A stretch of 64,000 nucleotides of DNA from Minisyncoccia bacterium (GCA_038244685.1 JBBRTD010000001.1:166392-230391); one strand, 5' to 3'. Shown: positions 44,015 through 64,000, counted from the stretch's first letter. Notes: generated by a model from the sequence alone, not told the origin. Numbers and translations: made by a program.

Positions 44015-44086
44015 AATGCATTAATATAAATAGAGCATGAAGAAATTTTCTTCATGCTCTATTTTTGTGATGTCTAAATTAAATAT

Positions 44087-44476: not shown

Positions 44477-44490
44477 GATATTAAAAAATA

Positions 44491-44940: not shown

Positions 44941-44945
44941 ATAAT

Positions 44946-49738: not shown

Positions 49739-49925
49739 ATGTTTTATTGGTTGATATATATAACAGAGCATACGAGAACCTTACTCTATTCTAGCTACCA
49801 ACATAAATTAATAATAAATAATTCACCTCGTCATAGACGAAGTAGACGCAAATTGCGATTGACTTTCATACTATCAAATTTGACGGGAATGTCAACCTAA
49901 GTATAAATTCCAATATATATTTAAA

Positions 49926-49960
49926 TAAAATACCCCAAAACTATGTTTTGGGGTATTTTA
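49926..49960. terminator. Terminator AAATACCCCAAAAC-TATG-TTTTGGGGTATTTT 3' of the giant surface-protein gene
   Basis: 14-bp stem with T-run. Confidence 0.6.
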
Positions 49961-49970
49961 CAATTAATAT

Positions 49971-52900
49971 TTATATTTCTTTTATTACAGGCTTAAGTTT
50001 GCCCACCGTCACCGTAACACTCTTTGAATCATTTCCTCCTGGTCCATTACAGGTCAAAGTATAAATGGTGGTCTTTAGTGGTTTAAAGGTTTTATTATTA
50101 TTACCAATAGGAGTTACACCAACAATGCTGACCGATGGACTAGGAACAGAAACCATGGAACAAGTTGTGGCTCCGGTTGAAGTCCAAGCTACGTTAACGG
50201 CTTCGCCAAATTCAATTTTGTTAGTATTAACTGAGAATGACGATATAGATGCTGGTACTGGTGGATTTGTAACCGTTACAGTAAATAGTGATGACCAAGC
50301 AGAATTTGCTCCTTTAATATCTTGAGTTAGAGCCTTAAGTGAATATACTCCGGGTGTTGGCCATGAATTTGCTGGAACCATTGATGTACCAGAAGCAACA
50401 AAACCAGTCCAAACATCAGCAACTCCATCGTTATTCCAATCAACACCATAGCGAACTTGGTCGAGGTCTGGATCAGTTCCTGTGACTATGAAGTTTTGAA
50501 GTACATCTTTGTAGAAAGTTGCATTTCCAGAAATAGTAGGAGCTAATGGTGCATTATTATCTGAAATACACGTTGCTCCGCCCCAATGGGTTCCGGCTGT
50601 ACAAGAAGCAGTTGCTGTAGCTGTAGAAAGCAAAGTTCCATTATTATATAGGAAGAAATTTCTAGTACCATTTGAAACAGCATAAGAAGTTCCAGCACTT
50701 GAATTGGCATTAGCTACAACAATACTTGTAGGAGTTGTTACTTGAGAAGTTCCTATTGGATATGTTGTACTCCAAATTAAATTCGTATTACATGAACTTG
50801 CCCCGAGTGCTATAGAACAGTTCGTTGCAGTTATTGGTCCACTTGCAGGAGGATTACAAGTAAAATCTGGTAAGGTTTTAATATTACTCCAGGCTCCATT
50901 ACTTGCTCTAGTATGAACATAAAGACCGCTGTATGTCTGACCGGGAGTAATCGCTACACTTGTTGTTGTACCACTTGCAACATCCACATAGAAAGGAGCA
51001 GTTGGTCTTACGTAGCCACCAGTATAAGGAGCTGGAACAGCCCAGTTAAGAGTCACAAGATTTCCAGCAGCATTACATGAACTTGTAAATGAAGTTGGTG
51101 GTGGTGGAATAGTAACTGTTACAGCATCAGAGGCTGACTGACCAGTTGCATTTGTACATGCGAGTGTATATGTTTGAGAAAGCGCACTTGCAGCACCGGC
51201 TTGTGATCCTCCTGATACAGAGACAGCAGAACCATTGATTGTACAACTTGTAGCGTTAGCAACTGCAGCCCAAGAAAGAGTAACAGGAGAACCAACATAA
51301 GTTTCAACTGAACCATCGGCATTATTTGATCCCCAGGCTGTGACTTTTAAGTCAGGAGTTGGAACAGCGGCATTGTTAACGTTAAAAGAAACTGATGTCC
51401 AACTATTCGCTGATGGAACCCAGTCAGAATTGTAACAATATGCTGACATGGTATGAGATCCTACAGAAGTTAAAGCTGGAGTATTATATGTTCCTGAATT
51501 ATAAACACTTGAATAATCCCACCCCCCACCAGAAGTCCAATTCCAATCTAATAATAAGTGACTGTAATATCCATTACTACAAGAATATGAAATAGTTGCT
51601 GGTGATCCGTAGGGAACATTTGGTGTAACAGACAGAGAAGTTATATTTGAAGCACAAGCTGGAACATTGTATGTCTGAGTGCTTGGTCCTGAACAAGCAG
51701 CTCCACCATAAGCAGGTGTTGGGCTATTACATGAGCGAGTTTGAGTTTTCGTCTGAGCGCTATAGGCACAAGTATTATCTTGGGCGCTCCATCCAGACCA
51801 TCCTCCATTTATAGGACAAGGAGCATTTGTATATGCTTGAGTGCTTGAACCAGAACAAGCAGCTCCACCACCTGAAGGTGCTGGACTATCACAAGAACGA
51901 GTTTGAGTTCCGGAATATCCACAGGCAGGATTTTGTGCACTCCAACCTGACCAACCTCCGTTTATAATAGGTGGACTAACAGTGAAAGTTCCTATTCTAC
52001 TCCAACTATTAGCAGAAGGAACCCAGTCAGAATTGTAACAATATGCCATTATATAATGAGTACCAGGAGTTGTAAGAGACCCAGTTGTAGAAGGAGATCG
52101 TGAGCCATAGTATCCACTATCATTTACTGGAGACCACACATCATCCATTATAAGATGACTATAATATCCATTTGTACAAGCATAATAAATATTTGCACTT
52201 CCTCCATATGGAATTACATTCGGAGAAACATAAAGAGATGTAATATTCGAGGCACATGCTGGAACTGTATATGTTTGAGTGCTTGGTCCTGAACAACCAG
52301 CTCCACCATAAGCAGGTGTTGGGCTATTACATGAACGAGTTTGAGTTTTCGTCTGAGCGCTATAGGCACAAGTATTATCTTGGGCACTCCATCCAGACCA
52401 ACCTCCATCAACAGGAGCATTAATAACACTATAATCACATGCAACCCATGGACTACTTACTCCACCTGCATTCATACATGAAACTTTTGCTTGGTGAGAT
52501 CCAACAGAGGCTCCGATTGCTCCTCTGGTTAAAGAAAGTGTCCCACTAGTATTATAATTTGACCAATAAGTATATTCATCAACTTTAAGTGAACACCAAC
52601 TTGCATTCGAAGAACCTACGGTAATATTGACAATATTACCAGAAGAATCTACTCCAGGATTTGGTGAAACAGAACATGAGGAAACGGGGGGTGGTGTAAT
52701 ATAAAAAGGAAGATCCCAATAATTATCACCATATAAACTTATATTTAAACTTACATTGTGATTACCAGGTGTTGCAACATTAAACGAAGTTGCTCCTGAA
52801 GGATAATAAGAAACATCTGTATAGCCGATAACCCATTGATATGTTGGATTTGTGTCAGTATTAGCTAATACATACATCGTTCCACCATAACTGGTATAGT

Positions 52901-53096
52901 CTACTGAAGTGGAAACTGTGACCGTATTTCCTGAAACATTTACGGCTGCAGTAAAGTACGTGTAATCTTCACCATTAGGATGAACGAGAGGCAGAAAAAA
53001 ACTATCTGCATCAACCTTATTAATTGGAATTAATGACAGTCCAAACAGAAAAACAAATATTATGAATAAATTATTAATTACTTTTTTCATTTTCAT
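49971..53096 (-). CDS. Giant secreted surface protein (1041 aa) with three thrombospondin type-1-like repeats, Ig-like repeat modules and a conserved C-terminal region shared with the paralog at 54560-57826
   Basis: Signal peptide MKMKKVINNLFIIFVFLFGLSLIP. TSR-like modules GGWSGWSAQ..C...TQTRSC.SP.P..GGA.CSG.STQ....PAC occur 3 times. Repeated beta-sandwich-like modules (ITSL.V.PNV...YSHL..D..W). C-terminal DPDLDQVRYGVDWNNDGVADVW Ca-binding-like loop. Confidence 0.8.
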   Translation of the reverse strand: MKMKKVINNLFIIFVFLFGLSLIPINKVDADSFFLPLVHPNGEDYTYFTAAVNVSGNTVTVSTSVDYTSYGGTMYVLANTDTNPTYQWVIGYTDVSYYPSGATSFNVATPGNHNVSLNISLYGDNYWDLPFYITPPPVSSCSVSPNPGVDSSGNIVNITVGSSNASWCSLKVDEYTYWSNYNTSGTLSLTRGAIGASVGSHQAKVSCMNAGGVSSPWVACDYSVINAPVDGGWSGWSAQDNTCAYSAQTKTQTRSCNSPTPAYGGAGCSGPSTQTYTVPACASNITSLYVSPNVIPYGGSANIYYACTNGYYSHLIMDDVWSPVNDSGYYGSRSPSTTGSLTTPGTHYIMAYCYNSDWVPSANSWSRIGTFTVSPPIINGGWSGWSAQNPACGYSGTQTRSCDSPAPSGGGAACSGSSTQAYTNAPCPINGGWSGWSAQDNTCAYSAQTKTQTRSCNSPTPAYGGAACSGPSTQTYNVPACASNITSLSVTPNVPYGSPATISYSCSNGYYSHLLLDWNWTSGGGWDYSSVYNSGTYNTPALTSVGSHTMSAYCYNSDWVPSANSWTSVSFNVNNAAVPTPDLKVTAWGSNNADGSVETYVGSPVTLSWAAVANATSCTINGSAVSVSGGSQAGAASALSQTYTLACTNATGQSASDAVTVTIPPPPTSFTSSCNAAGNLVTLNWAVPAPYTGGYVRPTAPFYVDVASGTTTSVAITPGQTYSGLYVHTRASNGAWSNIKTLPDFTCNPPASGPITATNCSIALGASSCNTNLIWSTTYPIGTSQVTTPTSIVVANANSSAGTSYAVSNGTRNFFLYNNGTLLSTATATASCTAGTHWGGATCISDNNAPLAPTISGNATFYKDVLQNFIVTGTDPDLDQVRYGVDWNNDGVADVWTGFVASGTSMVPANSWPTPGVYSLKALTQDIKGANSAWSSLFTVTVTNPPVPASISSFSVNTNKIEFGEAVNVAWTSTGATTCSMVSVPSPSVSIVGVTPIGNNNKTFKPLKTTIYTLTCNGPGGNDSKSVTVTVGKLKPVIKEI

Positions 53097-54408
53097 TCTT
53101 TTTTAGATTTCTAAAATATACAGCAACTCCTGCGACGACAAGAATTCCAATTGCCAAAATTATTAGGCTCTTATTTGCATTAGATTTTTTTTCTTCTGCC
53201 GAAAGAGGAGAAATGGGTAGTAAATTTATTCCAAAATTTTTTTGATCTAAGATATTTCCTTTATCATCTAATAAAGTGATGGAGGTACTGGGATTAAGAC
53301 ATTCTGTTTTTACAACAGCAGATAAATCTGTGATGGGATTTTTTATATTATTAATTAGAGGAATATTTATTGGATTAATGCATTCTTGCCCTTTATCATT
53401 TAACATTGTAGCTTTAATATTTAAATTTAAGGGTGTATTTTCTATTTTTGATTTATTACTACTTGAATTATAAAGCAAAGATAAGATAGCTGTGTCTCCT
53501 TTTTGATAATTATCTTTATTTAAAGTTAGATTTACAATTGAAGCACGAGTACCATTTAAAACATATGAGACATCAATCTTATTTGAAGAAACATCACCTT
53601 CAACCAGACTAACCTTCATATTATAAACCTGAGGGGTATTACCAATCGGAAGATTAATCGAAAATATTTTCTTTTCTTTTGATTTAAAAATTATTATTTC
53701 ATTGTTAATAATATTTTGTGGAACTATTGCCCCGTAAGATGAACCATTAAAAGTTTCAATTAAGGGTAAAACCGATAGATTTTTATCTATTTGATTAGTT
53801 GCTTCACAAAGGAGCTTTAGTGTTTCCCCTTTATTAATAGTAACTTTTTGTGAAATATTGTGATGAGGACTATCTTTTTCTTCTAATACCTGTGTGAAAC
53901 AAGTTGGTTCTGAAATAAGCAAACCCGCTTCTGAGGCCTTCAGGGTAACCTTACCTAATGAAACCTTAGCAAAAGGAAATCCATTTTCATTTTTAGCATT
54001 TATAAATAAATTATATTCACCCGAAAGTATTTTAGGGTAAGTGTAACTAATTTCTTTATTTAAAGTTTTATTTTCAAGAAGAACTAGAGATTCTTCGTAA
54101 ATTTTTTCATCAATAAGGTATGGAGTTTTTGAATCAGTGTCATACAGCTCAACTCCATATTTAATTCCAGTTTGAATTCCTGTACGATTTGATAAGATAA
54201 AAGAAATATTTATTATATTATCTTTTTGGGAAACTATTTTAGCATCTATTATATTTACGGTTGCTAAAACTACAGCTTTATTTATCGTATTATTAATAGC
54301 GGGTGGAACATTTGGCAGTTTTTGTGTTTCGTCTGCAAGGATAGGGGTTGCTAAAATAAAAGAAAGAAAAATAAACAAACTCACCGTTGGAATTTTTAAT
54401 AAATACAT
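53074..54408 (-). CDS. Signal-peptide protein with C-terminal TM anchor (444 aa), translationally coupled to the downstream giant gene
   Basis: N-terminal signal, beta-rich body, C-terminal LIILAIGILVVAGVAVYF then basic tail. 23-nt overlap with the start of 49971-53096. Confidence 0.6.
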   Translation of the reverse strand: MYLLKIPTVSLFIFLSFILATPILADETQKLPNVPPAINNTINKAVVLATVNIIDAKIVSQKDNIINISFILSNRTGIQTGIKYGVELYDTDSKTPYLIDEKIYEESLVLLENKTLNKEISYTYPKILSGEYNLFINAKNENGFPFAKVSLGKVTLKASEAGLLISEPTCFTQVLEEKDSPHHNISQKVTINKGETLKLLCEATNQIDKNLSVLPLIETFNGSSYGAIVPQNIINNEIIIFKSKEKKIFSINLPIGNTPQVYNMKVSLVEGDVSSNKIDVSYVLNGTRASIVNLTLNKDNYQKGDTAILSLLYNSSSNKSKIENTPLNLNIKATMLNDKGQECINPINIPLINNIKNPITDLSAVVKTECLNPSTSITLLDDKGNILDQKNFGINLLPISPLSAEEKKSNANKSLIILAIGILVVAGVAVYFRNLKKNENEKSN

Positions 54409-54508
54409 TTTATAAATTCTATTTTAAATAATAAATAATTGCCATAAGTATAACATTAGATATAGATATCAATGTCTAGTTTATTTGTTTAAATGTTTTG
54501 TAATATAG

Positions 54509-54543
54509 AAACACCCTAGGAACCTTTGTTCCTAGGGTGTTTA
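54509..54543. terminator. Terminator AACACCCTAGGAAC-CTTTG-TTCCTAGGGTGTT
   Basis: 14-bp stem 3' of the giant paralog. Confidence 0.55.
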
Positions 54544-54559
54544 AAACTATTTTATTTTA

Positions 54560-57500
54560 TTAAATTTCTTTAATTGTCGGTTTAATTTTCCCCACCGTCA
54601 CAGTAACACTCTTTGAATCATTTCCTCCTGGTCCATTACAGGTCAAAGTATAAATGGTGGTCTTTAATGGTTTAAAAGTTTTATTATTATTACCAATAGG
54701 AGTTACGCCAACAATACTGACGGATGGACTAGGAACAGAAACCATAGAACAGGTTGTGGCTCCGGTTGAAGTCCAAGCTAGGTTAACGGCTTCGCCGAAT
54801 TCAATTTTATTTTTATCTATAGTAAAGGATGTAATTGAGGCTGGTACTGGTGGATTTGTAACAACAACCGTGAACAATGATGACCAAGCAGAATTGGCTC
54901 CTTTAATATCTTGAGTTAAAGCCTTTATGTTGTAAGTACCAATAGTCGGCCACGAATTTGTTGGAACCATTGATGTGCCAGAAGCAACAAAGCCAGTCCA
55001 AACATCTGCAACTCCATCGTTATTCCAATCAACACCATAGCGAACTTGGTCGAGGTCTGGATCAGTTCCTGTGACTATGAAGTTTTGAAGTACATCTTTG
55101 TAGAAAGTTGCATTTCCAGAAATAGTTGGTGCTAATGGTGCATTATTATCTGAGATACATGTTGCTCCACTCCAATGAGTTCCGGCTGTACAAGAAGCAG
55201 TCGCTGTAGCTGTAGAAAGCAAAGTCCCATTATTATATAAGAAGAAATTTCTAGCACCATTTGATATAGCATAAGAAGTTCCAGCACTTGAGTTAGCGTT
55301 AGCTACAACAATACTTGTGGGGGTTGTTACTTGAGAAGTTCCTATTGGATATGAAGTACTCCAAATTAAATTCGTATTACATGAACTCCCGTTTAGAGGA
55401 ATTGTACAATTTGTAGCTGTAAGTGGTCCTGAAGCAGGGGGATTACATGTAATGTCTGCTATTGGTAAGGTATTACTCCAGGCTCCATTTGAACTTCTGG
55501 TGTGTAAATAAACTCCACTATAAGTTTGACCGGGAGTAACAGTAACATTAGTACTAAAACCACTTACAATGTCTTGATGAAAAGGTAATGTACCCCAGGG
55601 CGTACTTCTTAAATAGGCACCTGTATATCCAGGCTGAAGAGTCCAATTAAGTGTAGCTAAATTCCCAGCGGCATTACATGATCTTGTAAATGAAGTTGGT
55701 GGTGGTGGAACAGTAACGGTTACAGCATCAGAAGCAGATTGACCGGTTGCATTTGTACATGAAAGTGTATGAGATTTTGTTATTAAACTTGCCGTTCTTG
55801 TTTGAGACCCTCCTGAAACAGCAACAGCTGATCCATCGAGAGTACAACTTGTAGCGTTAGGAACTGCTGCCCAAGAAAGAGTATAAATATCACCTATATA
55901 AGTTTCTAATGGTCCATTAGAATTTGAACCTGACCACGCAGTAACTCTTAAATCAGGAACTGGGGCAGCGGCATTACTAACACTGAATGATACAGAATAC
56001 CAACTATTTGCAGATGGCACCATATCTGTATTGTAACAATATGCTGACATTGTATGAGATCCTACAGAAGTTAAAGCTGGAGTATTATATGTTCCTGAAT
56101 TGTAAACACCTGAATAATCCCATCCCCCACCTGAAGTCCAATTCCAATCTAATAATAAGTGACTGTAATAACCACTACTGCAAGAATATGAGATTGTTGC
56201 AGGTGTTCCATATGGGACAACATTATTTGTTATTGATAATGAGGTTATATTTGAACGTAAAGCAAAGTTAGCTGTACAGGTTTTTGATGAATCCATTGTT
56301 ACCTGTCCACTTGCATTACAACTTCCAGTCCATCCTGAAAATGTTGAATTGGCACTTGGAGAGGCAGTTGCTGTTACAAAAGTTCCTGGAGCATAACTTC
56401 CACTACCCCCCACAGAGCCAGAACCGGTCCCTGCTGTATTTACGGTAAGATTATAATTTACACAGTTAATAGCAACATTGGCTTGAATACTCCATGCTCC
56501 ATTTGAAGGATTTCTTGTGTGAACCCAGGCACTATAACCAGTATTTGGGGAAATTGAGAAGCCATCTGAAGTTCCAACAGAACCATCATTATAAAGAACA
56601 GTCGCTCCGTCTGAATTTCTAGAAGCTCTTGTATAAAAAGTATTATAACCAGCAGGTGCAGCCCAATTTATGGTTGCATACGTCGCACTAGCATTACAAG
56701 AATAACTTAGACTTGTAGGCATCGGTGGAGTAGTGATAGTAACTGAATCAGAAGCTGACTGACCTGTTGCATTTGTACATGAAAGAGTATGAGATTCCGA
56801 ACGAGCATTTGCAGTCCCAGCTTGTGAACCACCTGAAACAGAAACAGCGGAACCATCTAGAGTACAACTTGTAGCATTTGGTACGGCGTTCCAGTATAGA
56901 GTAAATGGAGAGCCTGTATAAGTTTCTATTGAACCATCGGCATGATCATAACCCCAAGCTGTGACTTTTAAGTCAGGAGTTGGTGTTGGAGCATTACTAA
57001 CAGTAAAAGATCCTATTCTAGTCCAACTATTAGCTGAAGGTACCCAATCTGAGTTATAACAATATGCCATGGCATAGTGAGATCCAGGAACTGTAAGTGC
57101 CCCTGTCGTCGTTGGAGATCTTGAACCATAATAGTTTGAATCTTGCCAAGCCCAAGTATCATCTAAAATAATATGACTATAATATCCATTCGTACAAGCA
57201 TAATATATATTAGCAGAACCTCCATACGGGACAACATTCGGTGAAACATACAAAGAAGTTATATTTGAAGCACAAGCTGGAACATTATATGTCTGAGTGC
57301 TTGGTCCTGAACAATCTGCTCCGCCATAAGCTGGTGTTGGATTATTACATGAACGAGTTTGAGTTTTAGTTTGAGCACTATATGCACAAGTATAATCTTG
57401 AGCACTCCAACCAGACCAACCTCCATTTACATTTACACCAAAATTTACGGTATACCAACCGGTCCAAACCCAATCATTGTTATAACAAGTTACAGAAGCA

Positions 57501-57826
57501 GTATGACCTCCAGGAGCCAAAACCGGTGTTGTCCATGAGCCAGAACTAGAATAAATAACACCTAAGGCATCTCCTCCCCAATCAAGATAAACATCACAGA
57601 AATCTGTACCACTATTCGCTGTATATGATATTGTTCCAGTTCCTCCGACAGGAATATTACCTGGAGTGACAGTTACAGAAATAATAGCAGGAAGCGGTCT
57701 GACTGTAACAGTAGTACTTCCTCCCCCAGTATCAGCATTTGCAAATGTAGGCCCTAATATAGACAAAACGAGAATGAATAAAAATATTTTTATTGTTTTC
57801 ATAATTTTAGATAAGATACGACTCAT
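54560..57826 (-). CDS. Giant secreted surface protein paralog (1088 aa) with one TSR-like repeat, Ig-like modules and the same C-terminal region as 49971-53096
   Basis: Signal peptide. NGGWSGWSAQDYTCAYSAQTKTQTRSCNNPTPAYGGADCSGPSTQTYNVPAC. C-terminal roughly 330 aa nearly identical to the paralog at protein and DNA level. Confidence 0.8.
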   Translation of the reverse strand: MSRILSKIMKTIKIFLFILVLSILGPTFANADTGGGSTTVTVRPLPAIISVTVTPGNIPVGGTGTISYTANSGTDFCDVYLDWGGDALGVIYSSSGSWTTPVLAPGGHTASVTCYNNDWVWTGWYTVNFGVNVNGGWSGWSAQDYTCAYSAQTKTQTRSCNNPTPAYGGADCSGPSTQTYNVPACASNITSLYVSPNVVPYGGSANIYYACTNGYYSHIILDDTWAWQDSNYYGSRSPTTTGALTVPGSHYAMAYCYNSDWVPSANSWTRIGSFTVSNAPTPTPDLKVTAWGYDHADGSIETYTGSPFTLYWNAVPNATSCTLDGSAVSVSGGSQAGTANARSESHTLSCTNATGQSASDSVTITTPPMPTSLSYSCNASATYATINWAAPAGYNTFYTRASRNSDGATVLYNDGSVGTSDGFSISPNTGYSAWVHTRNPSNGAWSIQANVAINCVNYNLTVNTAGTGSGSVGGSGSYAPGTFVTATASPSANSTFSGWTGSCNASGQVTMDSSKTCTANFALRSNITSLSITNNVVPYGTPATISYSCSSGYYSHLLLDWNWTSGGGWDYSGVYNSGTYNTPALTSVGSHTMSAYCYNTDMVPSANSWYSVSFSVSNAAAPVPDLRVTAWSGSNSNGPLETYIGDIYTLSWAAVPNATSCTLDGSAVAVSGGSQTRTASLITKSHTLSCTNATGQSASDAVTVTVPPPPTSFTRSCNAAGNLATLNWTLQPGYTGAYLRSTPWGTLPFHQDIVSGFSTNVTVTPGQTYSGVYLHTRSSNGAWSNTLPIADITCNPPASGPLTATNCTIPLNGSSCNTNLIWSTSYPIGTSQVTTPTSIVVANANSSAGTSYAISNGARNFFLYNNGTLLSTATATASCTAGTHWSGATCISDNNAPLAPTISGNATFYKDVLQNFIVTGTDPDLDQVRYGVDWNNDGVADVWTGFVASGTSMVPTNSWPTIGTYNIKALTQDIKGANSAWSSLFTVVVTNPPVPASITSFTIDKNKIEFGEAVNLAWTSTGATTCSMVSVPSPSVSIVGVTPIGNNNKTFKPLKTTIYTLTCNGPGGNDSKSVTVTVGKIKPTIKEI

Positions 57827-57908
57827 TAGATTTCTATTTGATTCTAATTTAGAAACAATAAATTTAAGTTTCTAACTCTAGAGTAAACCATTAATATAAA
57901 ACTACATA

Positions 57909-58412
57909 TTAATGTATAGGACGACACATATAACCACCAGTTCTGGAAGTCATAATATTGGAAAGGCCGAATGAAGTAGGAGAAGAATCAACAACTCTAT
58001 AGTCATAAGCACCATTATCAAGAGCACCTGCTAAAACTTCACCAGTACCATAGGTACCACTAACGAAAGGCCCTGTTTCAAACACATTACTACTGGTACA
58101 ATGCTGTAATTTATAATAATAGTAAGTTGGTGATGAGGCCCCTGAACAAGTAACAGAAAAAGTAGTAGTTGCGTATAAATTACTTACATAAAAAGACCCA
58201 GTTGGGCCACTACCTCCTCTTCCCCCTGCTTCAAAACAAGTAGAAGCACCTGAAGATGTCCAACTTATTTGAGTACCTCCCCCATAAGAAACAGCAGAAG
58301 GGTATGCAGTTACAGTAACGGCAACAGCGGCGCTACAAATATTTGCTGATATAAAAGCTATCCCAAAAACAAATAAAATTTTAACTAAAGATTTATTAAA
58401 TATTTTTTTCAT
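57909..58412 (-). CDS. Secreted protein (167 aa) carrying the YYKLQHC...SRTGG.C C-terminal domain
   Basis: Signal peptide. Shares ...YYYKLQHCT..NVF(E/Q)TGPF.SGTY.TGEVLAGALDNG.YDYRVVDSS with the C-terminus of 62933-64000. Confidence 0.6.
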   Translation of the reverse strand: MKKIFNKSLVKILFVFGIAFISANICSAAVAVTVTAYPSAVSYGGGTQISWTSSGASTCFEAGGRGGSGPTGSFYVSNLYATTTFSVTCSGASSPTYYYYKLQHCTSSNVFETGPFVSGTYGTGEVLAGALDNGAYDYRVVDSSPTSFGLSNIMTSRTGGYMCRPIH

Positions 58413-58539
58413 GTTATTTTAATAAGATATTATGATATTGCCTTAAATTATATCATATATAGATAAATATTTACAATTAAACAAAAAAAAGACCACTCAA
58501 ATTATATAAAATAATTGAGTGGCTTTTTTATTTAGTCTA

Positions 58540-59250
58540 CTATTTGACCTTCTTGTATACGTCTTTAAAGTTATCCTTAAAGATTCTAAAGGATTCCGAA
58601 GATATATTTTCAACCTTCCAAGCCCCACCCCAATTTAATGTTGGTGGTTTTGTTGTTTCATCGACAGACCAAGGTCCATCGCCTTTAAAACTTCCAACCA
58701 TTACATCAAACCTACCATTCGGAAGAAAAGTAACAACATCTGCCTCTGCTCGTGGAATAGAATAATATTTCCAAACCAGAGTTGGATCTTCGGGGGTTTT
58801 TGGTTCGTAAATATAAACCGAATCCTTAACCCATGAACCTTGAAGAAAGATCCAGGATAATGTTTTTTCAAAAGTTACTTTTACCTCATAATTTGTGGAG
58901 GCGTTAGTAGATATAACATAATTTTTACTTGTCATTGGAGTAGCAACCCCATTAACAGTTATAGTTTTTTGGGTGTAGCCAGGATCGGCTTCCGTCAAAA
59001 TTTCAACTACTGCACCACTTACCGCTTCATTTGGGCAAATGATTTTACCACCTATTCCGTTAACAACGGAAGCGGTAATCGTGAATTTCTGTGCAGGAGG
59101 ATCAAGAGGTCCTTCTTTACAAGAAACAATAAACATAAGTCCTACAACTAGCAGGACAACAAGAAAAAATAGTTTTTTCATATCCTTTATTTTTAGTGTA
59201 AATTTTCCTAATTTCATATATAGTATAGTACTTTTTAAGCATTTTGTCAA
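58540..59250 (-). CDS. Lipoprotein (236 aa)
   Basis: Lipobox LVVGLMFIVSC. Confidence 0.55.
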   Translation of the reverse strand: MTKCLKSTILYMKLGKFTLKIKDMKKLFFLVVLLVVGLMFIVSCKEGPLDPPAQKFTITASVVNGIGGKIICPNEAVSGAVVEILTEADPGYTQKTITVNGVATPMTSKNYVISTNASTNYEVKVTFEKTLSWIFLQGSWVKDSVYIYEPKTPEDPTLVWKYYSIPRAEADVVTFLPNGRFDVMVGSFKGDGPWSVDETTKPPTLNWGGAWKVENISSESFRIFKDNFKDVYKKVK

Positions 59251-59451
59251 GTTTCAATGCTCTTATATCGTATGCCTAATCTAAAGACTTTTTTGCTAAA
59301 TAAAATTAAATCAAAAAATAATAATTTCATATTTCATTTATATAAGTGTATAATAATATATTATTAATTAAATAGATATGCTTTGTTTCAATCAATAAAA
59401 TCGTTATAAATGAATTAATAGATTCGAAGCTTAGCAATTCTGTAAAATCGT

Positions 59452-60129
59452 ATGCAAAGAAATAAAATAATTTTAGCCTTGGCCATAGGAACAATATTTT
59501 CACCTGTAATAACAATACAAGCAGTGGAAAAAACAAACACAATAAAAGCAACTACAACAACGCAATCTCAAAATATTACAAAAATTCCTACAATCGATAA
59601 AGCAAAGATTGAAGAAATGAGAGCAAAACTAATGATTGAGACTAAAACCATAAAAGGTAATCTTGATATTCAAAAAGCTGAAATTGAAAAATTATTAGCA
59701 GAAAAAAAAGGTGAGACCAAAACAAAGCTTGTAGCAAAATCTCAAGAAAAAGTTCGAACTATTTTAGATAATATTTTTAATAAATTTAATGCTCAATTAG
59801 GAAAACTTTCAGGAGTTGACGCTAAGGTATCAATAAAAATCAATACTTTAGAAAAAACTGGGGTAAATGTAAGCGAGGCAAAGACACAATATACTATAGC
59901 TAAAGCCTCATTAGACAAGACAACAGCAGAAGTTCTAGCCATAAGAATGGTTTTAATGGAACAAATTACAGTAGATACATCAAGAGGAACATTTAGAGAT
60001 CTTGTAAAGAAAGCAGAAGAAAGTATGAAGGCTACAGGAAAAGAATATAACAAAATTATACCTCTTATCGTTAGTAGAAATAATAATGTCGAAGCAAAAG
60101 TTAATACAAATATTATAAATCAACAATAA
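59452..60129 (+). CDS. Secreted coiled-coil protein (225 aa)
   Basis: Signal peptide MQRNKIILALAIGTIFSPVITIQA, heptad-rich K/E composition. Confidence 0.55.
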   Translation: MQRNKIILALAIGTIFSPVITIQAVEKTNTIKATTTTQSQNITKIPTIDKAKIEEMRAKLMIETKTIKGNLDIQKAEIEKLLAEKKGETKTKLVAKSQEKVRTILDNIFNKFNAQLGKLSGVDAKVSIKINTLEKTGVNVSEAKTQYTIAKASLDKTTAEVLAIRMVLMEQITVDTSRGTFRDLVKKAEESMKATGKEYNKIIPLIVSRNNNVEAKVNTNIINQQ

Positions 60130-60135
60130 TCACAT

Positions 60136-60402
60136 ATGGAACCAACAACACCAACAGTAGCAGTAGCAAATAATAAATCAAAAATGGCTATCATTGTAAT
60201 TATAGTATTAATCATAATCGCTGGAGCGATAGCTGTAATATCACGTAGAGGAAAAACAGAAGTAAATCCTGCAAATAATGGGGAGGTTCAAAATGGTACA
60301 GTCTCCGAGTCGGATGATTCTCAAATCTTAACACAAGAGATTACTGCAGCCACAACATTTGATAATGAAAAAGATTTAAGTGAAATAGATAGCGCCTTCT
60401 AA
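60136..60402 (+). CDS. Small single-pass membrane protein (88 aa)
   Basis: TM IIVIIVLIIIAGAIAVI, acidic C-terminus. Confidence 0.45.
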   Translation: MEPTTPTVAVANNKSKMAIIVIIVLIIIAGAIAVISRRGKTEVNPANNGEVQNGTVSESDDSQILTQEITAATTFDNEKDLSEIDSAF

Positions 60403-60415
60403 TAATAGAATAAAT

Positions 60416-60445
60416 AAAAACCCTCGGAATATTCCGAGGGTTTTT
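60416..60445. terminator. Bidirectional terminator AAAAACCCTCGGAAT-ATTCCGAGGGTTTTT
   Basis: Perfect palindrome between convergent genes. Confidence 0.6.
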
Positions 60446-60455
60446 ATTTATTCTA

Positions 60456-61928
60456 TTATTGTTCTATATAAGTTGTATTCATCTTATCTACTGGAATCGT
60501 TACAGAGTCTGAGATAGAAGCTCCGTAGAATCCTAGACATGAAATAGTATATTTTGTATCTCTCTTTAGGGCTGGAGTTACATAAGGACTATTTTCATTT
60601 CCTCCACAACTGCCGCTTACTCCTGCTTTATCAGAATATTCACAAGAACAAGAATCAACATTTTCGGAAGTCCAAATTACTTTTGCTTTTCCGTTATAAG
60701 TAATTTTTTGACCAGTAGGAAGTGGTTTGTCTTTCCAAGTAAATGAAACATTCAAAGCTGGACATAGATTATTTGTATAGTCTCTACTTGTTGCCATACC
60801 ATCAGCATCAGGCGCACAAGGAGCACCTCCATTTAAAGGTTCAATACAAGATCTTGTTTGAGTACCACTACCTGGACAAGTACTTGATCGAGATGTCCAT
60901 GCCGTCCAAGCACCATCTACTTTTGGACCTGCAGGTGGAGTAGCAATACAAACTGAACCATTCCAAGTACAATTATTTAACTGTGCATCAACATATTTAC
61001 TTGCTAATTCTTTTCCAGTGTTATAAAGGAATAATGTCGTTGATTCACCATAAGATAGAGTTAAAGATTTATTTCCAACATCCCCTGTGGCGAGAGTCTT
61101 ACCACCAGTACTTTCGGTTACAGCAGAAGCTCCAACTGTTTCTGGATTAGTAACCTTCCAAGAATAAGGAACAGCACATGAACTTTCGCCAATACTTATA
61201 AGACAACTAGTTGCATCCAAATTACCAGACATCGGACCGGCAGGATATTTACAATTATCACTTACATAAGTTGAATTTGAATTAGTAACCGGTGTTTCAA
61301 AAATACATCCAGGAAAATCACTTTTTGTTTGCTTTCTTATTACTGAACCAGAGATAGCAGCATCACCATTCCCGTTTAAGTCACAAGCAACAGTAACGTT
61401 CTTAGTTAGAGGAGCAGGGCAAACTGTTCCGCAGGCTTTGGTATCATTATCTGCTGCGGGACAAGCAATTCCACCATTTGATGCTGGAGTAGTTATATTG
61501 TAAGTTTCAGTTCCGTTTACACAAGAACTCCAACTACCAACACAATTTGTTCCACAGGTACGAGTCGCATTATCGGCAAAAGAACATACCGCCCCGCCTC
61601 CTGATGCAGGCGAAGTAATATTATAAGTCTGAGTTCCGTTTGAACATGAACTCCAACTACCAACACAGCTTGTTCCACAATTTTGAGTTGCTCCATTAAC
61701 TGCCGAGCAGACAGCGCCACCGTTTTCGGCTGGAGTGGTAATGTTGTAAGTTTGAGAACCATTAATACAAGTGCTGTAACTTCCCGAACAATCAACAACC
61801 CCAGCTCCTGCTCCTACGACTTGGACAGTTGCGGTTCCAGAAATAGAAGCCGCATTGGCAGAAATAAATCCTAATATAAAAAATGAGAAAACGAATAAAA
61901 TAATTTTTGAAATTTTCATTGCGTTCAT
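60456..61928 (-). CDS. Secreted Cys-rich protein (490 aa) with three short TSR-like modules and one fuller TSR-like module
   Basis: Signal peptide. Three repeated modules C(G/I)(T/N)(S/G)...W(S)SC.NGT.TYNIT.PA..GG..C. C-terminal DGAWTAWTSRSSTCPGSGTQTRSCIEPLNGGAPC. Confidence 0.7.
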   Translation of the reverse strand: MNAMKISKIILFVFSFFILGFISANAASISGTATVQVVGAGAGVVDCSGSYSTCINGSQTYNITTPAENGGAVCSAVNGATQNCGTSCVGSWSSCSNGTQTYNITSPASGGGAVCSFADNATRTCGTNCVGSWSSCVNGTETYNITTPASNGGIACPAADNDTKACGTVCPAPLTKNVTVACDLNGNGDAAISGSVIRKQTKSDFPGCIFETPVTNSNSTYVSDNCKYPAGPMSGNLDATSCLISIGESSCAVPYSWKVTNPETVGASAVTESTGGKTLATGDVGNKSLTLSYGESTTLFLYNTGKELASKYVDAQLNNCTWNGSVCIATPPAGPKVDGAWTAWTSRSSTCPGSGTQTRSCIEPLNGGAPCAPDADGMATSRDYTNNLCPALNVSFTWKDKPLPTGQKITYNGKAKVIWTSENVDSCSCEYSDKAGVSGSCGGNENSPYVTPALKRDTKYTISCLGFYGASISDSVTIPVDKMNTTYIEQ

Positions 61929-62074
61929 AAAATTGCTTGATAATTGATAAATAATAAATAGAAACTATTGTTTTTATTATACCAATAAATGAATAGCATT
62001 AGCAAATAAATTTATGTCTATTTAATGACAATCTAAGTGTTATTAAATAATTATAAAAGTACCCCAATATACAA

Positions 62075-62106
62075 AAAACCCTTTTCTTGAAAAAGAAAAG
62101 GGTTTT
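62075..62106. terminator. Terminator AAAACCCTTTTCTT-GAAA-AAGAAAAGGGTTTT
   Basis: 14-bp perfect stem. Confidence 0.55.
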
Positions 62107-62125
62107 CGTATATTTATACATACAC

Positions 62126-62782
62126 CTATATTGGTGTGTAGGTTTCCTCGAATAAGTTTGTATTAGTAGCCACAGATGATATCAATACTAAATGATTAGC
62201 ATCAACGGTAACTAATTCCCAAGTAGAACTTCCTATTTTTATAATCTTATTAGACCAGGTCCATTTATATGAAGCAGTATATACTCCATCTAAAAAGAAA
62301 TCTTGAGTCCAATCGTCTTTAAAAAAAAGTGATTCTTTGGCTCCATCAAAAGTCATGTCTCTGATGAATTCTCTTTTGGAATTTAACAAACGATATTTTC
62401 CATTACCCCACTTAAAGTGAGTAAGAATCCCGAATTGGGAAGTAGTCCAGTTGCCCACGTGAGTGGTAACTGTTTTATTAGCACTAACACTTCCGTTAAT
62501 AGCGTTAATCGTAACCGTTGTCTCCCTTATTAAAGTTGGAAGGGCAACATTGATTACATCTGCTTTTTCGTTGTTGATTAAAAGTGAAGTAAAGTCCTTC
62601 ACAGTTCCTACAATATTAATAGTGTCCCCAAATACTACTGTTGTATCTGAAAAATTAGTTAATATTGTTGGAGTTTTAGCTACAACAACTGGAGGATTTA
62701 TTGGCTCAAGACCCCCCGATCCTGTCGAACAACTAATTAATAAGCTGCTCAAAATAACAACCATCAAAATTCTGCTCATCAT
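62126..62782 (-). CDS. Lipoprotein (218 aa)
   Basis: Lipobox SSLLISCSTG. Confidence 0.55.
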   Translation of the reverse strand: MMSRILMVVILSSLLISCSTGSGGLEPINPPVVVAKTPTILTNFSDTTVVFGDTINIVGTVKDFTSLLINNEKADVINVALPTLIRETTVTINAINGSVSANKTVTTHVGNWTTSQFGILTHFKWGNGKYRLLNSKREFIRDMTFDGAKESLFFKDDWTQDFFLDGVYTASYKWTWSNKIIKIGSSTWELVTVDANHLVLISSVATNTNLFEETYTPI

Positions 62783-62862
62783 ATGTTAAGGTATTTGTTT
62801 CTTCCTTTAAATAATGATATATAAATGGGAATTAGTCAAATTTTAACAGTGGATAACTTTTT

Positions 62863-62914
62863 AAGTATATACAAAATAAAACCCTATATTTAGGGTTTTA
62901 TTTTGTATATACTT
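62863..62914. terminator. 52-bp perfect palindrome AAGTATATACAAAATAAAACCCTA-TATT-TAGGGTTTTATTTTGTATATACTT
   Basis: Exact reverse-complement arms centred at about 62888. Confidence 0.55.
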
Positions 62915-62932
62915 AAATTTATTTAAGAGATA

Positions 62933-64000
62933 TTAATTTGAAATTGTACGGCAAACACTTCCTCCAGTTCTAGAAGTTCCAGAGATGAAACCGATACCTG
63001 AGAATGGAGTAGTCGAAGAATCAACAACTCTATAGTCATATGTACCATTATCAAGGGCTCCAGCTAATACTTCACCGGTACTATATGTTCCACTTGGGAA
63101 AGGGCCAGTTTGGAATACATTTGGACCAGTACAATGCTGTAATTTATAGTAATAACTACCCTTATTAGTAGTTACTGAATTTGTATCATCAGTACAAACT
63201 ACTTCAAATTTCTCATCACAAGTTTGTTTTGTAGGACAAGTCAAAGCTCCGGTTGCTGCCTTGCCTACTGGATAACCATAATGAGTGCCATTAGGGTCAC
63301 CCTTCACATAACAATAGGCCTTACTTTCATCTAGACCCCAAGCACGCCACACTAAATTAGTTCCCTCTTTGTCATTTACTGTTGAGTTTTCAACTGTCAC
63401 ATCAATGCCTGGGGCTACATATGGCTTTTTGTAGAAACAAGATTTGAGTACATTTGGAACAGGGTCACCACCGAAGGTACTTGTGTCACATTTAATACTA
63501 TCTGTTGCATCTTTAAAGATACATAATCCTCCTAATGTACCAAAGGCGACACTAGTAGTACCAGAAACGGTACAGTCTCCTCCTTCATCACTACATTTAG
63601 AAAATCCTGTAAGGTCACAACCAACAATGTAAGGAACATTTGTTTCGAAATATACAACAGGAGTTGTATCCATGAAAGGGTTTGCAAGACCTTGAGCTAA
63701 GAAATTTGGATTAAAGAAATAACCTTCATGTTTATAATAAGCCTTTATATTCATACTATAATTACCAGGAACACTCGGAGCTTGGAATGGGGGAGTAAAG
63801 ATCCCTGCACCATAGATTGCATATCCTCCAGTGACGTTCTCATTGATAATAGTGTAGTGATTGGGTTGACCACTAATCTGACCTTCCATAATAATATTTA
63901 TGGTTGAATTTCCACATGTTGGAAATTCAACACCAGCTAATATTGTGACAGGCTCACCAGGGGCATAAACTTTTTTACTAAAATTTAAAATAAAAACTAA
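62933..64000 (-). CDS. Secreted protein with YYKLQHC C-terminal domain, 5'-truncated by window edge (frame open beyond 64000)
   Basis: Reading frame continues without a stop upstream of the listed M to the window end. C-terminal roughly 90 aa homologous to 57909-58412. Confidence 0.6.
   Translation of the reverse strand, partial: LVFILNFSKKVYAPGEPVTILAGVEFPTCGNSTINIIMEGQISGQPNHYTIINENVTGGYAIYGAGIFTPPFQAPSVPGNYSMNIKAYYKHEGYFFNPNFLAQGLANPFMDTTPVVYFETNVPYIVGCDLTGFSKCSDEGGDCTVSGTTSVAFGTLGGLCIFKDATDSIKCDTSTFGGDPVPNVLKSCFYKKPYVAPGIDVTVENSTVNDKEGTNLVWRAWGLDESKAYCYVKGDPNGTHYGYPVGKAATGALTCPTKQTCDEKFEVVCTDDTNSVTTNKGSYYYKLQHCTGPNVFQTGPFPSGTYSTGEVLAGALDNGTYDYRVVDSSTTPFSGIGFISGTSRTGGSVCRTISN

What the first reader, a model, noticed from the sequence alone, without database searches (positions are those of the whole stretch)
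49971..64000. 14-kb accessory island of secreted, lipo- and membrane-anchored proteins with no enzymatic domains: candidate attachment or episymbiosis surface system
All ten ORFs between tuf and the window end carry signal peptides, lipoboxes or TM anchors. They comprise the TSR giants, a co-translated C-terminally anchored 444-aa protein, a Cys-rich TSR-like protein, two lipoproteins, a coiled-coil protein, and two proteins sharing a novel domain. Nearly every gene has its own palindromic terminator. This looks like a dedicated cell-surface module rather than housekeeping. It is the best candidate in this window for an undescribed system, e.g. a host-adhesion apparatus of a CPR episymbiont.
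Basis: inference. Interest (0 to 1): 0.7.

Follow-up and report, generated by a model that had tools for sequence, protein, structure and literature searches.

The report
Paceibacteria surface-protein locus with anchor–passenger pairs
Next to the elongation-factor gene of an uncultured ultra-small (CPR, Paceibacteria) bacterium lies a conserved block of exported, non-enzymatic surface proteins: giant proteins with animal-type thrombospondin repeats, and a membrane-anchored stalk protein that in relatives is fused to its secreted neighbour, which makes it a good candidate cell-attachment apparatus whose function has not been tested.

Summary
The observation largely holds. All nine complete ORFs in 49971-62782 have a signal peptide, lipobox or TM anchor, against 16 of 52 elsewhere in the window. 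The tenth ORF runs off the window end, but its ortholog has a signal peptide. No enzyme, defence or phage family matches any of them.

The giants carry true thrombospondin type-1 repeats (human TSP-1 structure 3r6b, E 1e-13). The domain shared by S167 and ORF9 is very rare: 13 representatives among 1.84 billion proteins, and no solved fold.

The locus is not "accessory". Its gene order is conserved in every relative recovered, all Paceibacteria. It lies between nusA and tuf, with no mobility genes and no GC break. Only five genes have a perfect terminator hairpin.

The new result concerns the 444-aa protein. It is a stalk of three beta-sandwich domains with a C-terminal TM helix. In six split loci its last 20-44 nt overlap the start of a secreted "passenger" gene. 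In at least 17 more distant homologs the two are one ORF, joined by a TM hairpin whose second helix is an internal signal peptide with an AxA site.

This fusion/fission pattern ties anchor and passenger together functionally. Physical anchoring and host adhesion remain inferences. I rate it a new variant of a known kind, interest about 0.58.

The parts
49971..53096 (-). G1, a 1041-aa secreted giant. It has a signal peptide (cleavage ~VDA|DS), an N-terminal beta domain, 3 TSR repeats interleaved with Cys-containing Ig-like domains, FN3-like and PKD-like domains and a terminal Ig-like domain, and ends ...GKLKPVIKEI.
   Evidence: It occupies the passenger position after P444.
51651..51962 (-). 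Tandem thrombospondin type-1 repeats TSR2-TSR3 of G1 (residues 379-482).
   Evidence: phmmer against PDB: 3r6b, 1lsl and 7yyk (human TSP-1 TSR2-3), E 1e-13; also UNC5, properdin and ADAMTS13. Pfam TSP_1 is sub-threshold.
52251..52412 (-). TSR1 of G1 (residues 229-282).
   Evidence: WSGWS...TQTRSC...PxPxxGGxxCxG motif. Matches the C8beta TSR, E 2e-6.
49926..49960 (.). Perfect 16-bp hairpin between the G1 stop and the tuf promoter region (terminator-like).
   Evidence: I4; sequence.
53074..54408 (-). P444, the anchor module. It has a signal peptide (ILA|DE), three beta-sandwich domains (51-156, 163-284, 288-393), a linker, a TM helix (411-439) and the cytoplasmic tail NLKKNENEKSN.
53074..53096 (-). 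23-nt overlap between the P444 stop and the G1 start (G1 in the +1 frame): aaaaagaATGaaaatgaaaaaagtaatTAA.
   Evidence: The same +1-frame overlap of 20-44 nt occurs in L003 (x3), L018, L031 and L043.
54560..57826 (-). G2, a 1088-aa secreted giant paralogous to G1. It has 1 TSR (57266-57427), a Flg_new_2 / InlB B-repeat-like domain (residues 461-523), two Ig+FN3-like blocks and the same C-terminal ~400 aa as G1.
54509..54542 (.). Perfect 15-bp hairpin after G2.
   Evidence: I6.
57909..58412 (-). S167: signal peptide, an Ig-like domain and a C-terminal 'YKLxHC' domain (57912-58136).
58540..59181 (-). Lpp236, a lipoprotein. The likely start is MKKLFF at 59181, with lipobox IVSC. It has a weak Flg_new_2-like domain and an unassigned C-terminal domain.
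   Evidence: Orthologs in L003, L004 and L043.
59452..60129 (+). CC225, a signal peptide plus ~195-aa Lys/Glu-rich protein. Apart from TM88 it is the only gene on the + strand, and it is the best conserved gene of the locus (56-77% identity to relatives).
   Evidence: No family or PDB match.
60136..60402 (+). TM88, an 88-aa single-pass membrane protein with a conserved acidic C-terminal tail (...TTFDNExxLxxIDxAF). It always follows CC225.
60401..60460 (.). 32-bp perfect palindrome, a bidirectional terminator between TM88 (+) and C490 (-).
   Evidence: I1.
60456..61928 (-). C490, a secreted protein with 28 Cys. It has three 41-aa short TSR-like repeats (61420-61788), a domain shared with the giants, one TSR (about 60759-60911) and a terminal Ig-like domain, and ends ...TTYIEQ.
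62126..62782 (-). Lpp218, a lipoprotein (lipobox LISC). It is followed by a perfect hairpin at 62075-62106.
   Evidence: There are two paralogs in L003. It is not detectably related to Lpp236.
62933..64000 (-). ORF9, truncated at its 5' end by the window edge. It is an ORF9-type passenger: the conserved passenger N-domain, a Cys-rich block, an Ig-like domain and a C-terminal YKLxHC domain (62936-63166). A hairpin at 62860-62917 follows it.
   Evidence: The full-length ortholog is 428 aa with a signal peptide and is overlapped at its start by a P444 paralog.

Best explanation
The region is the tuf-proximal part of a conserved, lineage-specific cell-surface locus of a Paceibacteria (CPR) bacterium. 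In relatives the locus runs from nusA to tuf.

Export (shown). Every product is exported by Sec: as a lipoprotein, a single-pass membrane protein or a soluble secreted protein.

Anchor-passenger unit (functional link shown; roles inferred). The core unit is a two-part surface protein.
- The anchor module is P444: a cleavable signal peptide, a stalk of three beta-sandwich domains, one TM helix and a short basic cytoplasmic tail.
- It is made together with a passenger whose gene start overlaps the anchor's stop. Here the passenger is the TSR giant G1. Just past the window edge it is presumably a second pair, P0113 + ORF9.
- In more distant relatives the same two parts form one polypeptide: SP, stalk, TM1, a Lys/Arg loop, TM2 and then the passenger. 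TM2 is an internal signal peptide ending in AxA.
- Signal peptidase I is therefore predicted to release the passenger outside the cell, leaving the stalk in the membrane.

Proposed mechanism (inferred). The released passenger stays bound non-covalently to the stalk. It projects variable binding modules away from the cell to attach it to a partner cell or a polymer. These modules are thrombospondin repeats, Ig-like, FN3-like and PKD-like domains, Cys knots and the YKLxHC tip domain.

Other components (role inferred). The remaining secreted proteins (G2, C490, S167) are built from the same domain repertoire. Together with the two lipoproteins and the CC225/TM88 pair, they are taken to be further parts of the same surface layer.
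For: Export signals: 9/9 complete ORFs, plus the ortholog of the tenth.

No enzymatic, defence or phage family hits.

Conserved synteny:
- L003 has the order C495 | 88(-) 222(-) | Lpp229 | S168 | giant | P443 | giant.
- L004 and L005 have giant then tuf.
- L043-L045 have nusA | P435 then 426 aa | Lpp | C507 | 86(-) 226(-) | Lpp.

Anchor-passenger link:
- Six split junctions all have a +1-frame overlap of 20-44 nt.
- 17 fused homologs all show TM1, a K/R loop, a second hydrophobic segment and then the passenger, most with a recognisable AxA motif such as NKVSA|DT, EAKA|DT or GARA|DT. The loop charge obeys the positive-inside rule.
- P0136 joins the P444 module, the passenger N-domain and the YKLxHC domain in one 810-aa ORF.
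- Fused or paired passengers elsewhere carry TSR, FN3-like or PKD-like segments of the giants (L019, L027, L030).

P444 fold: three beta-sandwiches plus a TM helix, pLDDT 80.5, with only generic Ig-like neighbours.

Adhesive domain content: TSRs homologous to human TSP-1, UNC5 and properdin, and a PKD-like domain (4xed, E 3e-9); Flg_new_2.

Literature context: highly expressed signal-peptide proteins with Ig-like or PKD folds in Paceibacterales that attach to methanogens have been read as adhesion factors (PMC10936435).
Against: - No direct evidence of surface location, of a stalk-passenger complex, or of any ligand.
- An HMM of the conserved passenger N-domain detects ORF9 (E 1.7e-8) but not G1 (hhalign probability 0.9%). 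A common docking domain therefore cannot be claimed for the P444-G1 pair in this window.
- L004 and L005 have a giant next to tuf with no adjacent P444 gene. Giants can therefore exist without a neighbouring anchor.
- G2, S167 and C490 have no anchor gene and no recognisable wall- or membrane-attachment signal.
- SPase cleavage of the internal signal peptide is predicted only from sequence motifs.
- The relatives found are few and all come from metagenomes. Expression is unknown.
Confidence: 0.55

Rival explanations
1. Structural surface coat (S-layer-like) rather than adhesins. P444 would be the membrane stalk and the giant the outer canopy subunit, as with SlaB/SlaA in Sulfolobales. The position beside tuf would ensure very high expression.
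For: P444 has the SlaB-like plan: a Sec signal, beta-sandwich domains and a C-terminal TM. Anchor and giant are translationally coupled. The giant sits directly upstream of tuf in three genomes, and secreted-protein genes are embedded in the str/S10 operons of other Paceibacteria. That CPR cells have S-layers whose proteins are unidentified is my own recollection of cryo-EM studies; I did not check it here.
Against: The giants are Cys-rich (26-30 Cys) mosaics of small adhesion-type modules, which is unusual for lattice-forming S-layer proteins. Their domain order and length change quickly between close relatives (937-1283 aa). Passengers paired with P444 modules are extremely heterogeneous (226 to more than 2000 aa), which fits interchangeable cargo better than one lattice subunit. 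There is no sequence or family match to any S-layer protein.
Confidence: 0.2
2. P444 is not an anchor for the passenger. It would be a cis-acting export or folding helper: a membrane chaperone working at the translocon for large disulfide-rich cargo. The passenger is then released freely into the medium.
Confidence: 0.12
3. There is no system. It is a fortuitous or merely co-regulated cluster of unrelated secreted proteins that accumulates at a permissive insertion site near tuf.
For: Most genes have their own promoter-like and terminator-like signals. The two lipoproteins are unrelated to each other. Other Paceibacteria carry different secreted proteins at the same fusA-tuf or S10-operon positions.
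Against: Gene order is conserved from 77% down to 42-56% protein identity. The P444-passenger link is supported by at least 17 independent fusions. S167, ORF9, C490 and the giants share domains with one another.
Confidence: 0.1

Closest known systems
Thrombospondin type-1 repeat (TSR/TSP1) adhesion proteins of eukaryotes (thrombospondin-1, UNC5, properdin, ADAMTS, hemicentin/SCO-spondin; apicomplexan TRAP/CSP)
   Same: The WSxWS tryptophan ladder, the ...RxC...PxPxxGGxxCxG core, tandem arrangement and an extracellular location. Sequence similarity to solved TSRs is significant (3r6b, E 1e-13) and extends to cnidarian hemicentin (E 1e-123 summed over repeats).
   Different: The host is bacterial (CPR). 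The window copies have 4 rather than 6 Cys and lack the CSxTCG turn, although a canonical 6-Cys copy exists in the L005 giant. They fall below the Pfam gathering scores. They are interleaved with Ig-like, FN3-like and PKD-like bacterial modules. The ligand is unknown. No paper in the searchable library links TSRs to Parcubacteria or Patescibacteria.
Sulfolobales S-layer pair SlaB (membrane stalk) and SlaA (outer subunit); cited from my own knowledge
   Same: Adjacent, co-expressed genes. One product has a Sec signal, beta-sandwich domains and a C-terminal TM anchor. The other is a large secreted protein thought to be held non-covalently.
   Different: No sequence relationship. P444 has no predicted coiled-coil segment. 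The passengers are Cys-rich, mosaic and highly variable. The gene order is anchor first. Fused polyprotein forms with an internal signal peptide are not known for SlaAB.
Surface precursors cleaved into an anchored and an outer part: Clostridioides difficile SlpA (cleaved by Cwp84), Mycoplasma pneumoniae Mpn142 giving P40/P90 beside adhesin P1 (my own knowledge; PMC7156367 appeared in search but was not read)
   Same: One precursor or operon yields two surface polypeptides that act together. This occurs in a wall-less or reduced-genome parasite context, with an adhesion role.
   Different: Here the predicted cleavage is by signal peptidase I at an internal signal peptide within a TM hairpin, not by a dedicated protease. 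There is no homology.
Viral polyproteins processed by host signal peptidase at internal signal sequences (flavivirus and pestivirus envelope proteins; my own knowledge)
   Same: The topology logic is the same: TM, cytoplasmic loop, signal-like TM with an AxA site, then the next ectodomain.
   Different: This is a cellular bacterial protein with no homology. I found no bacterial precedent in the literature search.
Ig-like/PKD signal-peptide proteins highly expressed by Paceibacterales attached to methanogens (PMC10936435)
   Same: The same bacterial order-level group, the same kinds of fold and the same proposed role (host adhesion).
   Different: Those proteins were not shown to include TSRs, a P444-type anchor or this locus.

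Membership tests
Thrombospondin type-1 repeat (Pfam TSP_1 PF00090 / TSP1_spondin PF19028) | W-x-x-W (WSxWS) tryptophan ladder at the start of the repeat | tested here: met
   GGWSGWSAQ occurs 3 times in G1 and once in G2; DGAWTAWTS occurs in C490.
Thrombospondin type-1 repeat (Pfam TSP_1 PF00090 / TSP1_spondin PF19028) | Six conserved Cys forming three disulfides, including the CSxTCG turn | tested here: not met
   The window copies have 4 Cys and no CSxTCG. A canonical 6-Cys copy (WSAWSSFGACSLSCGGGTQSQSRTC...) is present in the related giant of L005.
Thrombospondin type-1 repeat (Pfam TSP_1 PF00090 / TSP1_spondin PF19028) | Score at or above the Pfam gathering threshold | tested here: not met
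   G1 16.9 and G2 17.0 bits against 21.6; C490 27.3 bits against 41. Close homologs P0003, P0004 and P0006 carry precomputed PF00090 hits.
Thrombospondin type-1 repeat (Pfam TSP_1 PF00090 / TSP1_spondin PF19028) | Significant sequence similarity to experimentally solved TSR domains | tested here: met
   3r6b E 1.1e-13, 1lsl 3.8e-13, UNC5B 8e-12, properdin 2e-4, ADAMTS13 6e-4.
Bacterial lipoproteins (Lgt/LspA substrates) | Signal peptide ending in a lipobox [LVI][ASTVI][GAS]C | tested here: met
   Lpp236 has ...GLMFIVSC|KEG and Lpp218 has ...SLLISC|STG. Lipid modification itself cannot be tested with these tools.
Sortase (LPXTG) or other C-terminal sorting-signal proteins | A C-terminal motif, then a hydrophobic stretch, then a basic tail | tested here: not met
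   The giants, C490, S167 and ORF9 end in soluble sequence with no LPXTG and no C-terminal hydrophobic segment. No NCBIfam sorting-domain hit passes its cut-off.
Two-component S-layer of the SlaA/SlaB type | A membrane stalk subunit with a Sec signal, beta-sandwich domains and a C-terminal TM, encoded next to the outer subunit | tested here: met
   P444 model; overlap with G1.
Two-component S-layer of the SlaA/SlaB type | Homology to known S-layer proteins, and a lattice-forming outer subunit | tested here: not met
   No Pfam, NCBIfam or PDB sequence match. Lattice formation cannot be tested here.
Autotransporter / two-partner secretion | An outer-membrane beta-barrel translocator domain or partner | tested here: not met
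   No such Pfam or NCBIfam hit. P444 is all beta-sandwich with one TM helix.
Mobile or accessory genomic island | Integrase or transposase, a tRNA or direct-repeat boundary, atypical composition, and patchy presence among close relatives | tested here: not met
   GC is 0.32-0.42, within the range of the window. The only tRNA and the tmRNA lie at 6-9 kb. No mobility gene is present. The locus is present in syntenic form in all related contigs recovered.
PKD domain | Sequence similarity to a solved PKD domain or to the Pfam PKD model | tested here: inconclusive
   G1 residues 847-938 match 4xed (PKD domain of an M14 peptidase) at E 3.4e-9, but there is no Pfam PKD hit at E <= 0.1.

The most novel reading that the evidence does not exclude
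Paceibacteria have an undescribed surface-display system. A dedicated beta-sandwich stalk protein is synthesised as a polyprotein with its cargo, or as a translationally coupled split version. The polyprotein is threaded as a TM hairpin and cut by signal peptidase I at an internal signal peptide, after which the stalk holds the released cargo on the cell surface. The cargo set includes giant adhesins built from eukaryote-type thrombospondin repeats and a lineage-specific tip domain (YKLxHC). Together these would determine which host cell the epibiont binds.
Probability: 0.3. Interest if true: 0.75.

Novelty: new variant of a known kind. Interest (0 to 1): 0.58.

Why it matters
Almost all Paceibacteria (Parcubacteria) are uncultured. 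How they recognise and hold on to host cells is unknown outside the type IV pili studied in Saccharibacteria.

This locus offers concrete, testable candidates:
- A conserved anchor-passenger unit whose two halves are tied together by at least 17 natural gene fusions.
- Giant proteins with true thrombospondin repeats. In animals and apicomplexan parasites this module mediates matrix and cell attachment, and I found no paper discussing it in CPR bacteria.
- A very rare terminal domain with no solved fold.

The predicted processing of a bacterial surface polyprotein at an internal signal peptide would, if confirmed, be an unusual biogenesis route. It could be tested directly in a heterologous host.

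If the proteins turn out to be structural, they would be candidates for the unidentified CPR surface layer. Either way they would be useful markers and antigens for enrichment, imaging and host-range studies.

Tried and rejected
- Programmed frameshift at the P444/G1 junction. The window has a dnaX-like A AAA AAG heptamer, but a -1 shift meets TGA at once, G1 is in the +1 frame, and the heptamer is absent from the other five junctions. Rejected in favour of overlap coupling.
- Split genes as homopolymer sequencing errors. Rejected, because the same +1-frame overlap recurs in independent assemblies at 42-81% protein identity.
- A shared docking domain in all passengers. An HMM trained without the window or L003 sequences finds ORF9 and giant P0005, but not G1, G2, S167 or C490. 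hhalign against the G1 N-terminus gives probability 0.9%. The hhalign hit between the passenger profile and the P444 alignment only reflects fused members inside that alignment.
- Defence-system, phage or enzyme reading. PADLOC, PHROGs, NCBIfam and Pfam give nothing.
- PDB sequence searches of CC225, C490 and the ORF9 ortholog found nothing.
- The two lipoproteins as paralogs: not detectable.
- The search for related loci with CC225 in genome contigs confirmed no locus, although a genome in that collection encodes a 77%-identical copy. I treat this as a tool miss.
- The source contig (NCBI, 327,635 bp) could not be retrieved through exact-protein look-ups, so the part of the locus beyond 64000 is inferred from L003 and L043.
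- Literature searches for TSRs in CPR, for a CPR C-terminal sorting signal and for bacterial internal-signal-peptide polyproteins found nothing relevant.

Full report
**1. What is there**

tuf lies at 48539-49771 on the minus strand, followed by rpsJ, rplC and rplD. Between tuf and the window end there are ten ORFs:
- G1: 49971-53096, 1041 aa.
- P444: 53074-54408.
- G2: 54560-57826, 1088 aa.
- S167: 57909-58412.
- Lpp236: 58540-59181, taking the MKKLFF start.
- CC225: 59452-60129, plus strand.
- TM88: 60136-60402, plus strand.
- C490: 60456-61928.
- Lpp218: 62126-62782.
- ORF9: from 62933 onward.

ORF9 is open all the way to base 63997, so its 5' end lies outside the window.

A crude hydrophobicity and charge census finds an N-terminal signal peptide, lipobox or TM anchor in 9 of the 9 complete ORFs. 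The figure for the other ORFs of the window is 16 of 52, and most of those are polytopic membrane proteins. The clustering is therefore far beyond chance.

None of the ten proteins matches an enzyme, defence or phage family in Pfam, NCBIfam, PADLOC or PHROGs. The only Pfam hits are Flg_new_2 in G2, which is above its cut-off, and sub-threshold TSP_1 and TSP1_spondin hits.

Five perfect hairpins follow G1, G2, TM88/C490, Lpp218 and ORF9. None follows S167, Lpp236 or P444. "Nearly every gene" is therefore an overstatement. The apparent transcription units are [ORF9], [Lpp218], [C490], [CC225-TM88], [Lpp236-S167-G2] and [P444-G1].

**2. The giants and their repeats**

G1 and G2 are paralogs. Their C-terminal ~400 residues are about 90% identical, and their N-terminal parts are shuffled.

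G1 residues 379-475 align to the crystal structure of human thrombospondin-1 TSR2-3 (3r6b, E 1.1e-13). They also align to UNC5, properdin, C8beta and ADAMTS13 repeats. In the protein database the best non-CPR hits are cnidarian hemicentin and SCO-spondin.

The window copies are a reduced form, with four Cys instead of six and no CSxTCG turn. They fall below Pfam's gathering scores. A canonical six-Cys copy occurs in the related giant of L005.

G1 residues 847-938 match a solved PKD domain (4xed, E 3.4e-9).

C490 is a smaller protein assembled from the same repertoire. It has three short TSR-like Cys repeats, a domain shared with the giants, one TSR and the same kind of terminal Ig-like domain.

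**3. Organism and conservation**

The closest genomes are titled Candidatus Paceibacteria bacterium La3_metabat2.146 and Candidatus Paceibacterota bacterium SO_2016_GW1_82. Their tuf genes are 93% and 96% identical to the window's. The window therefore comes from a CPR bacterium of the Paceibacteria.

The gene order is conserved across relatives:
- L003 has C495 | 88(-) 222(-) | Lpp229 | S168 | giant | P443 | giant. Upstream of this it has two more P444-type genes, each overlapping a secreted gene, and two Lpp218 paralogs.
- L004 has C-like | 84(-) 224(-) | Lpp227 | S172 | giant | tuf.
- The more distant L005 has a P444-type gene, Lpp, an inserted block of unrelated genes, C634 | 84(-) 221(-) | giant | tuf.
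- L043-L045 show the far boundary: nusA(-) | P435 then a 426-aa gene | Lpp221 | C507 | 86(-) 226(-) | Lpp219.

The block is thus a conserved locus between nusA and tuf in which the copy number of giants and anchor-passenger pairs varies.

Three further points argue against calling it an accessory island:
- GC content is unremarkable.
- The only tRNA and the tmRNA are 40 kb away.
- There are no mobility genes.

The lineage itself is sparsely sampled. The P444 family has only 21 clusters among 5.8 billion proteins.

**4. The anchor-passenger unit**

The last 23 nt of P444 overlap the ATG of G1. The same arrangement recurs in the three L003 pairs, in L018, in L031 and in L043. In each the passenger start is in the +1 frame and overlaps by 20-44 nt, at P444 identities from 42% to 77%.

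A scan of metagenome contigs found 25 loci encoding P444 relatives. Wherever the downstream sequence can be read, the module is either overlapped by an exported ORF or continues in frame into a much longer protein of 606 to 2506 aa.

All 17 fused homologs examined show the same junction:
- TM1, followed by a short Lys/Arg loop such as KKKKN or KKRKG.
- A second hydrophobic segment, in most cases followed by a recognisable signal-peptidase motif such as NKVSA|DT, EAKA|DT, GARA|DT or KALA|AT.
- A mature passenger that usually begins DT[FY].

The charged loop fits the positive-inside rule for a hairpin with both large domains outside the cell.

In this clade the gene has been split exactly in that loop. 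P444 ends with the basic tail NLKKNENEKSN, and G1 begins with its own n-region MKMKK. A programmed frameshift is unlikely: the only slippery heptamer is not conserved, and it leads to an immediate stop in the wrong frame.

This fusion/fission pattern is strong evidence that the anchor module and the downstream exported protein act together. Which protein does what is inference.

**5. Passenger types and the rare domain**

ORF9-type passengers share a conserved N-domain with the approximate motif tVNLdKs.Y.PGe.i...G......C.N...F.AP...G.Y. An HMM of this domain, built without the window or L003 sequences, gave these results:
- It detects ORF9 (E 1.7e-8), its orthologs and giant P0005.
- It does not detect G1, G2, S167 or C490.

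hhalign against the G1 N-terminus gives probability 0.9%. A universal docking domain therefore cannot be claimed.

S167 and ORF9 share a 75-aa C-terminal domain, Y[YF]KLxHC...TGP[FY]..G.Y..G.V..GA...G.Y[DN]Y.V....C, at 70% identity. An exhaustive HMMER search of 1.84 billion representatives found only 13 proteins with it.

One of those 13, P0136, is a single 810-aa ORF containing the P444 module, the TM hairpin, the passenger N-domain and this C-terminal domain. It links three of the locus's families in one chain.

The AF2 model of S167 (pLDDT 79.6) has an Ig-like domain and a beta-rich C-domain. The C-domain has no solved neighbour.

**6. Interpretation**

What is shown:
- The proteins carry export signals.
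- No catalytic family is detected.
- The locus is conserved.
- The TSRs are homologous to eukaryotic TSRs.
- P444 has a stalk-plus-TM architecture.
- P444 is linked to its passenger by gene fusions and translational coupling.

What is inferred:
- SPase I cuts at the internal signal peptide.
- The passenger is retained non-covalently on the stalk.
- The array has an adhesive role.

The domain content is that of adhesion proteins. Similar Ig-like and PKD signal-peptide proteins are highly expressed by Paceibacterales attached to methanogens, and have been interpreted as adhesion factors (PMC10936435).

The main rival is a structural coat of the SlaA/SlaB kind. The stalk architecture and the position next to tuf favour it. 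The Cys-rich mosaic giants and the great heterogeneity of passengers count against it. A helper or chaperone role for P444, and a "no system" reading, are less likely but not excluded.

**7. Novelty**

Multi-domain surface adhesins, lipoproteins and stalk-anchored surface proteins are known kinds.

These points appear new. I found nothing on them in the searchable literature:
- The P444 anchor family, with its fused and split polyprotein forms and its internal signal peptide.
- Thrombospondin-repeat giants as a conserved feature beside tuf in Paceibacteria.
- The YKLxHC domain.

I rate the finding a new variant of a known kind, with interest about 0.58. It would rise to about 0.75 if the display mechanism and a host-binding role were demonstrated.

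Noticed in passing
window 49974-50000 and 54563-54590 (C-termini of G1 and G2), weaker at 60459-60480 (C490); also L009, L011, L012: The giants end in ...GK[IL]KPx[IV]KE[I]-COOH. The same C-terminal signature, [K]KPx[FIV][KIQ]E[x]-COOH, ends 27 of about 35 prokaryotic giant homologs. It also ends otherwise unrelated signal-peptide proteins of other Paceibacteria (..PRFKEF..PNFRET..PQFQEI..PDWKEI..PVWKER..PSFDEI), and a variant ..[YW][RK]EVAP[W] exists. This may be an undescribed C-terminal sorting or attachment signal of CPR bacteria.
   Followed up: partly
L011 1571-12196; L021 3-9089; L012 3696-15151: In other Paceibacteria, genes for Cys-rich secreted proteins are inserted inside the str/S10 ribosomal operons. 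Examples are rpsG-fusA-[3 signal-peptide proteins]-tuf in a Kaiserbacteria MAG, and tuf-S10-L3-L4-L23-L2-[1228-aa fused P444 protein]-S19-L22 in L021. Surface-protein genes next to translation genes seem to be a recurrent habit of this group.
   Followed up: partly
P0140 and P0141 (relatives of window 57909-58412): In two homologs the S167-type signal peptide and Ig-like domain are followed by a Hint/intein-like N-terminus (CF[IV]A[ND]T..T...G..K.I.D[IV]K.GD.L.G) instead of the YKLxHC domain. This suggests an autoprocessing variant of the same small secreted protein.
   Followed up: no
window 63300-63560 (ORF9) and the N-terminus of P0012: A Cys-rich stretch, C.DEGG.C.....VAFG....C......I.C....FGGDP.P...K.CFY, occurs in ORF9 and its paralogs. 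It also opens the TSR giant P0012. It has no Pfam match.
   Followed up: no
window 6436-6510: A tRNA-Ile with anticodon TAT (UAU) lies next to ftsH and the tmRNA gene. This is an uncommon way for bacteria to read AUA.
   Followed up: no
window 1290-4925 (-): A 1211-aa ORF with no cysteine, no export signal and no Pfam match.
   Followed up: no
window 29877-32612 (-): A 911-aa ORF with weak TrwB/TraG/VirD4-type coupling-protein ATPase matches. It is embedded among housekeeping genes.
   Followed up: no
window 53100-53112: A dnaX-like slippery heptamer, A AAA AAG, lies in the zero frame just before the P444/G1 overlap. A -1 shift would stop at once at TGA, and the heptamer is not conserved in the other junctions, so it is probably fortuitous.
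   Followed up: yes
Genome-contig scan with alignment A1 (CC225): The scan confirmed no locus, although JBBRVK010000002.1 in the same collection encodes a 77%-identical CC225 containing both search patterns. This negative result should not be read as absence.
   Followed up: partly
window 43442-45578: A phosphoribosyltransferase gene, a diacylglycerol-kinase-like small membrane protein and two other small membrane proteins interrupt the S10 operon between rplB and rpsS. L004 and L005 have a DAGK gene at the same place.
   Followed up: no
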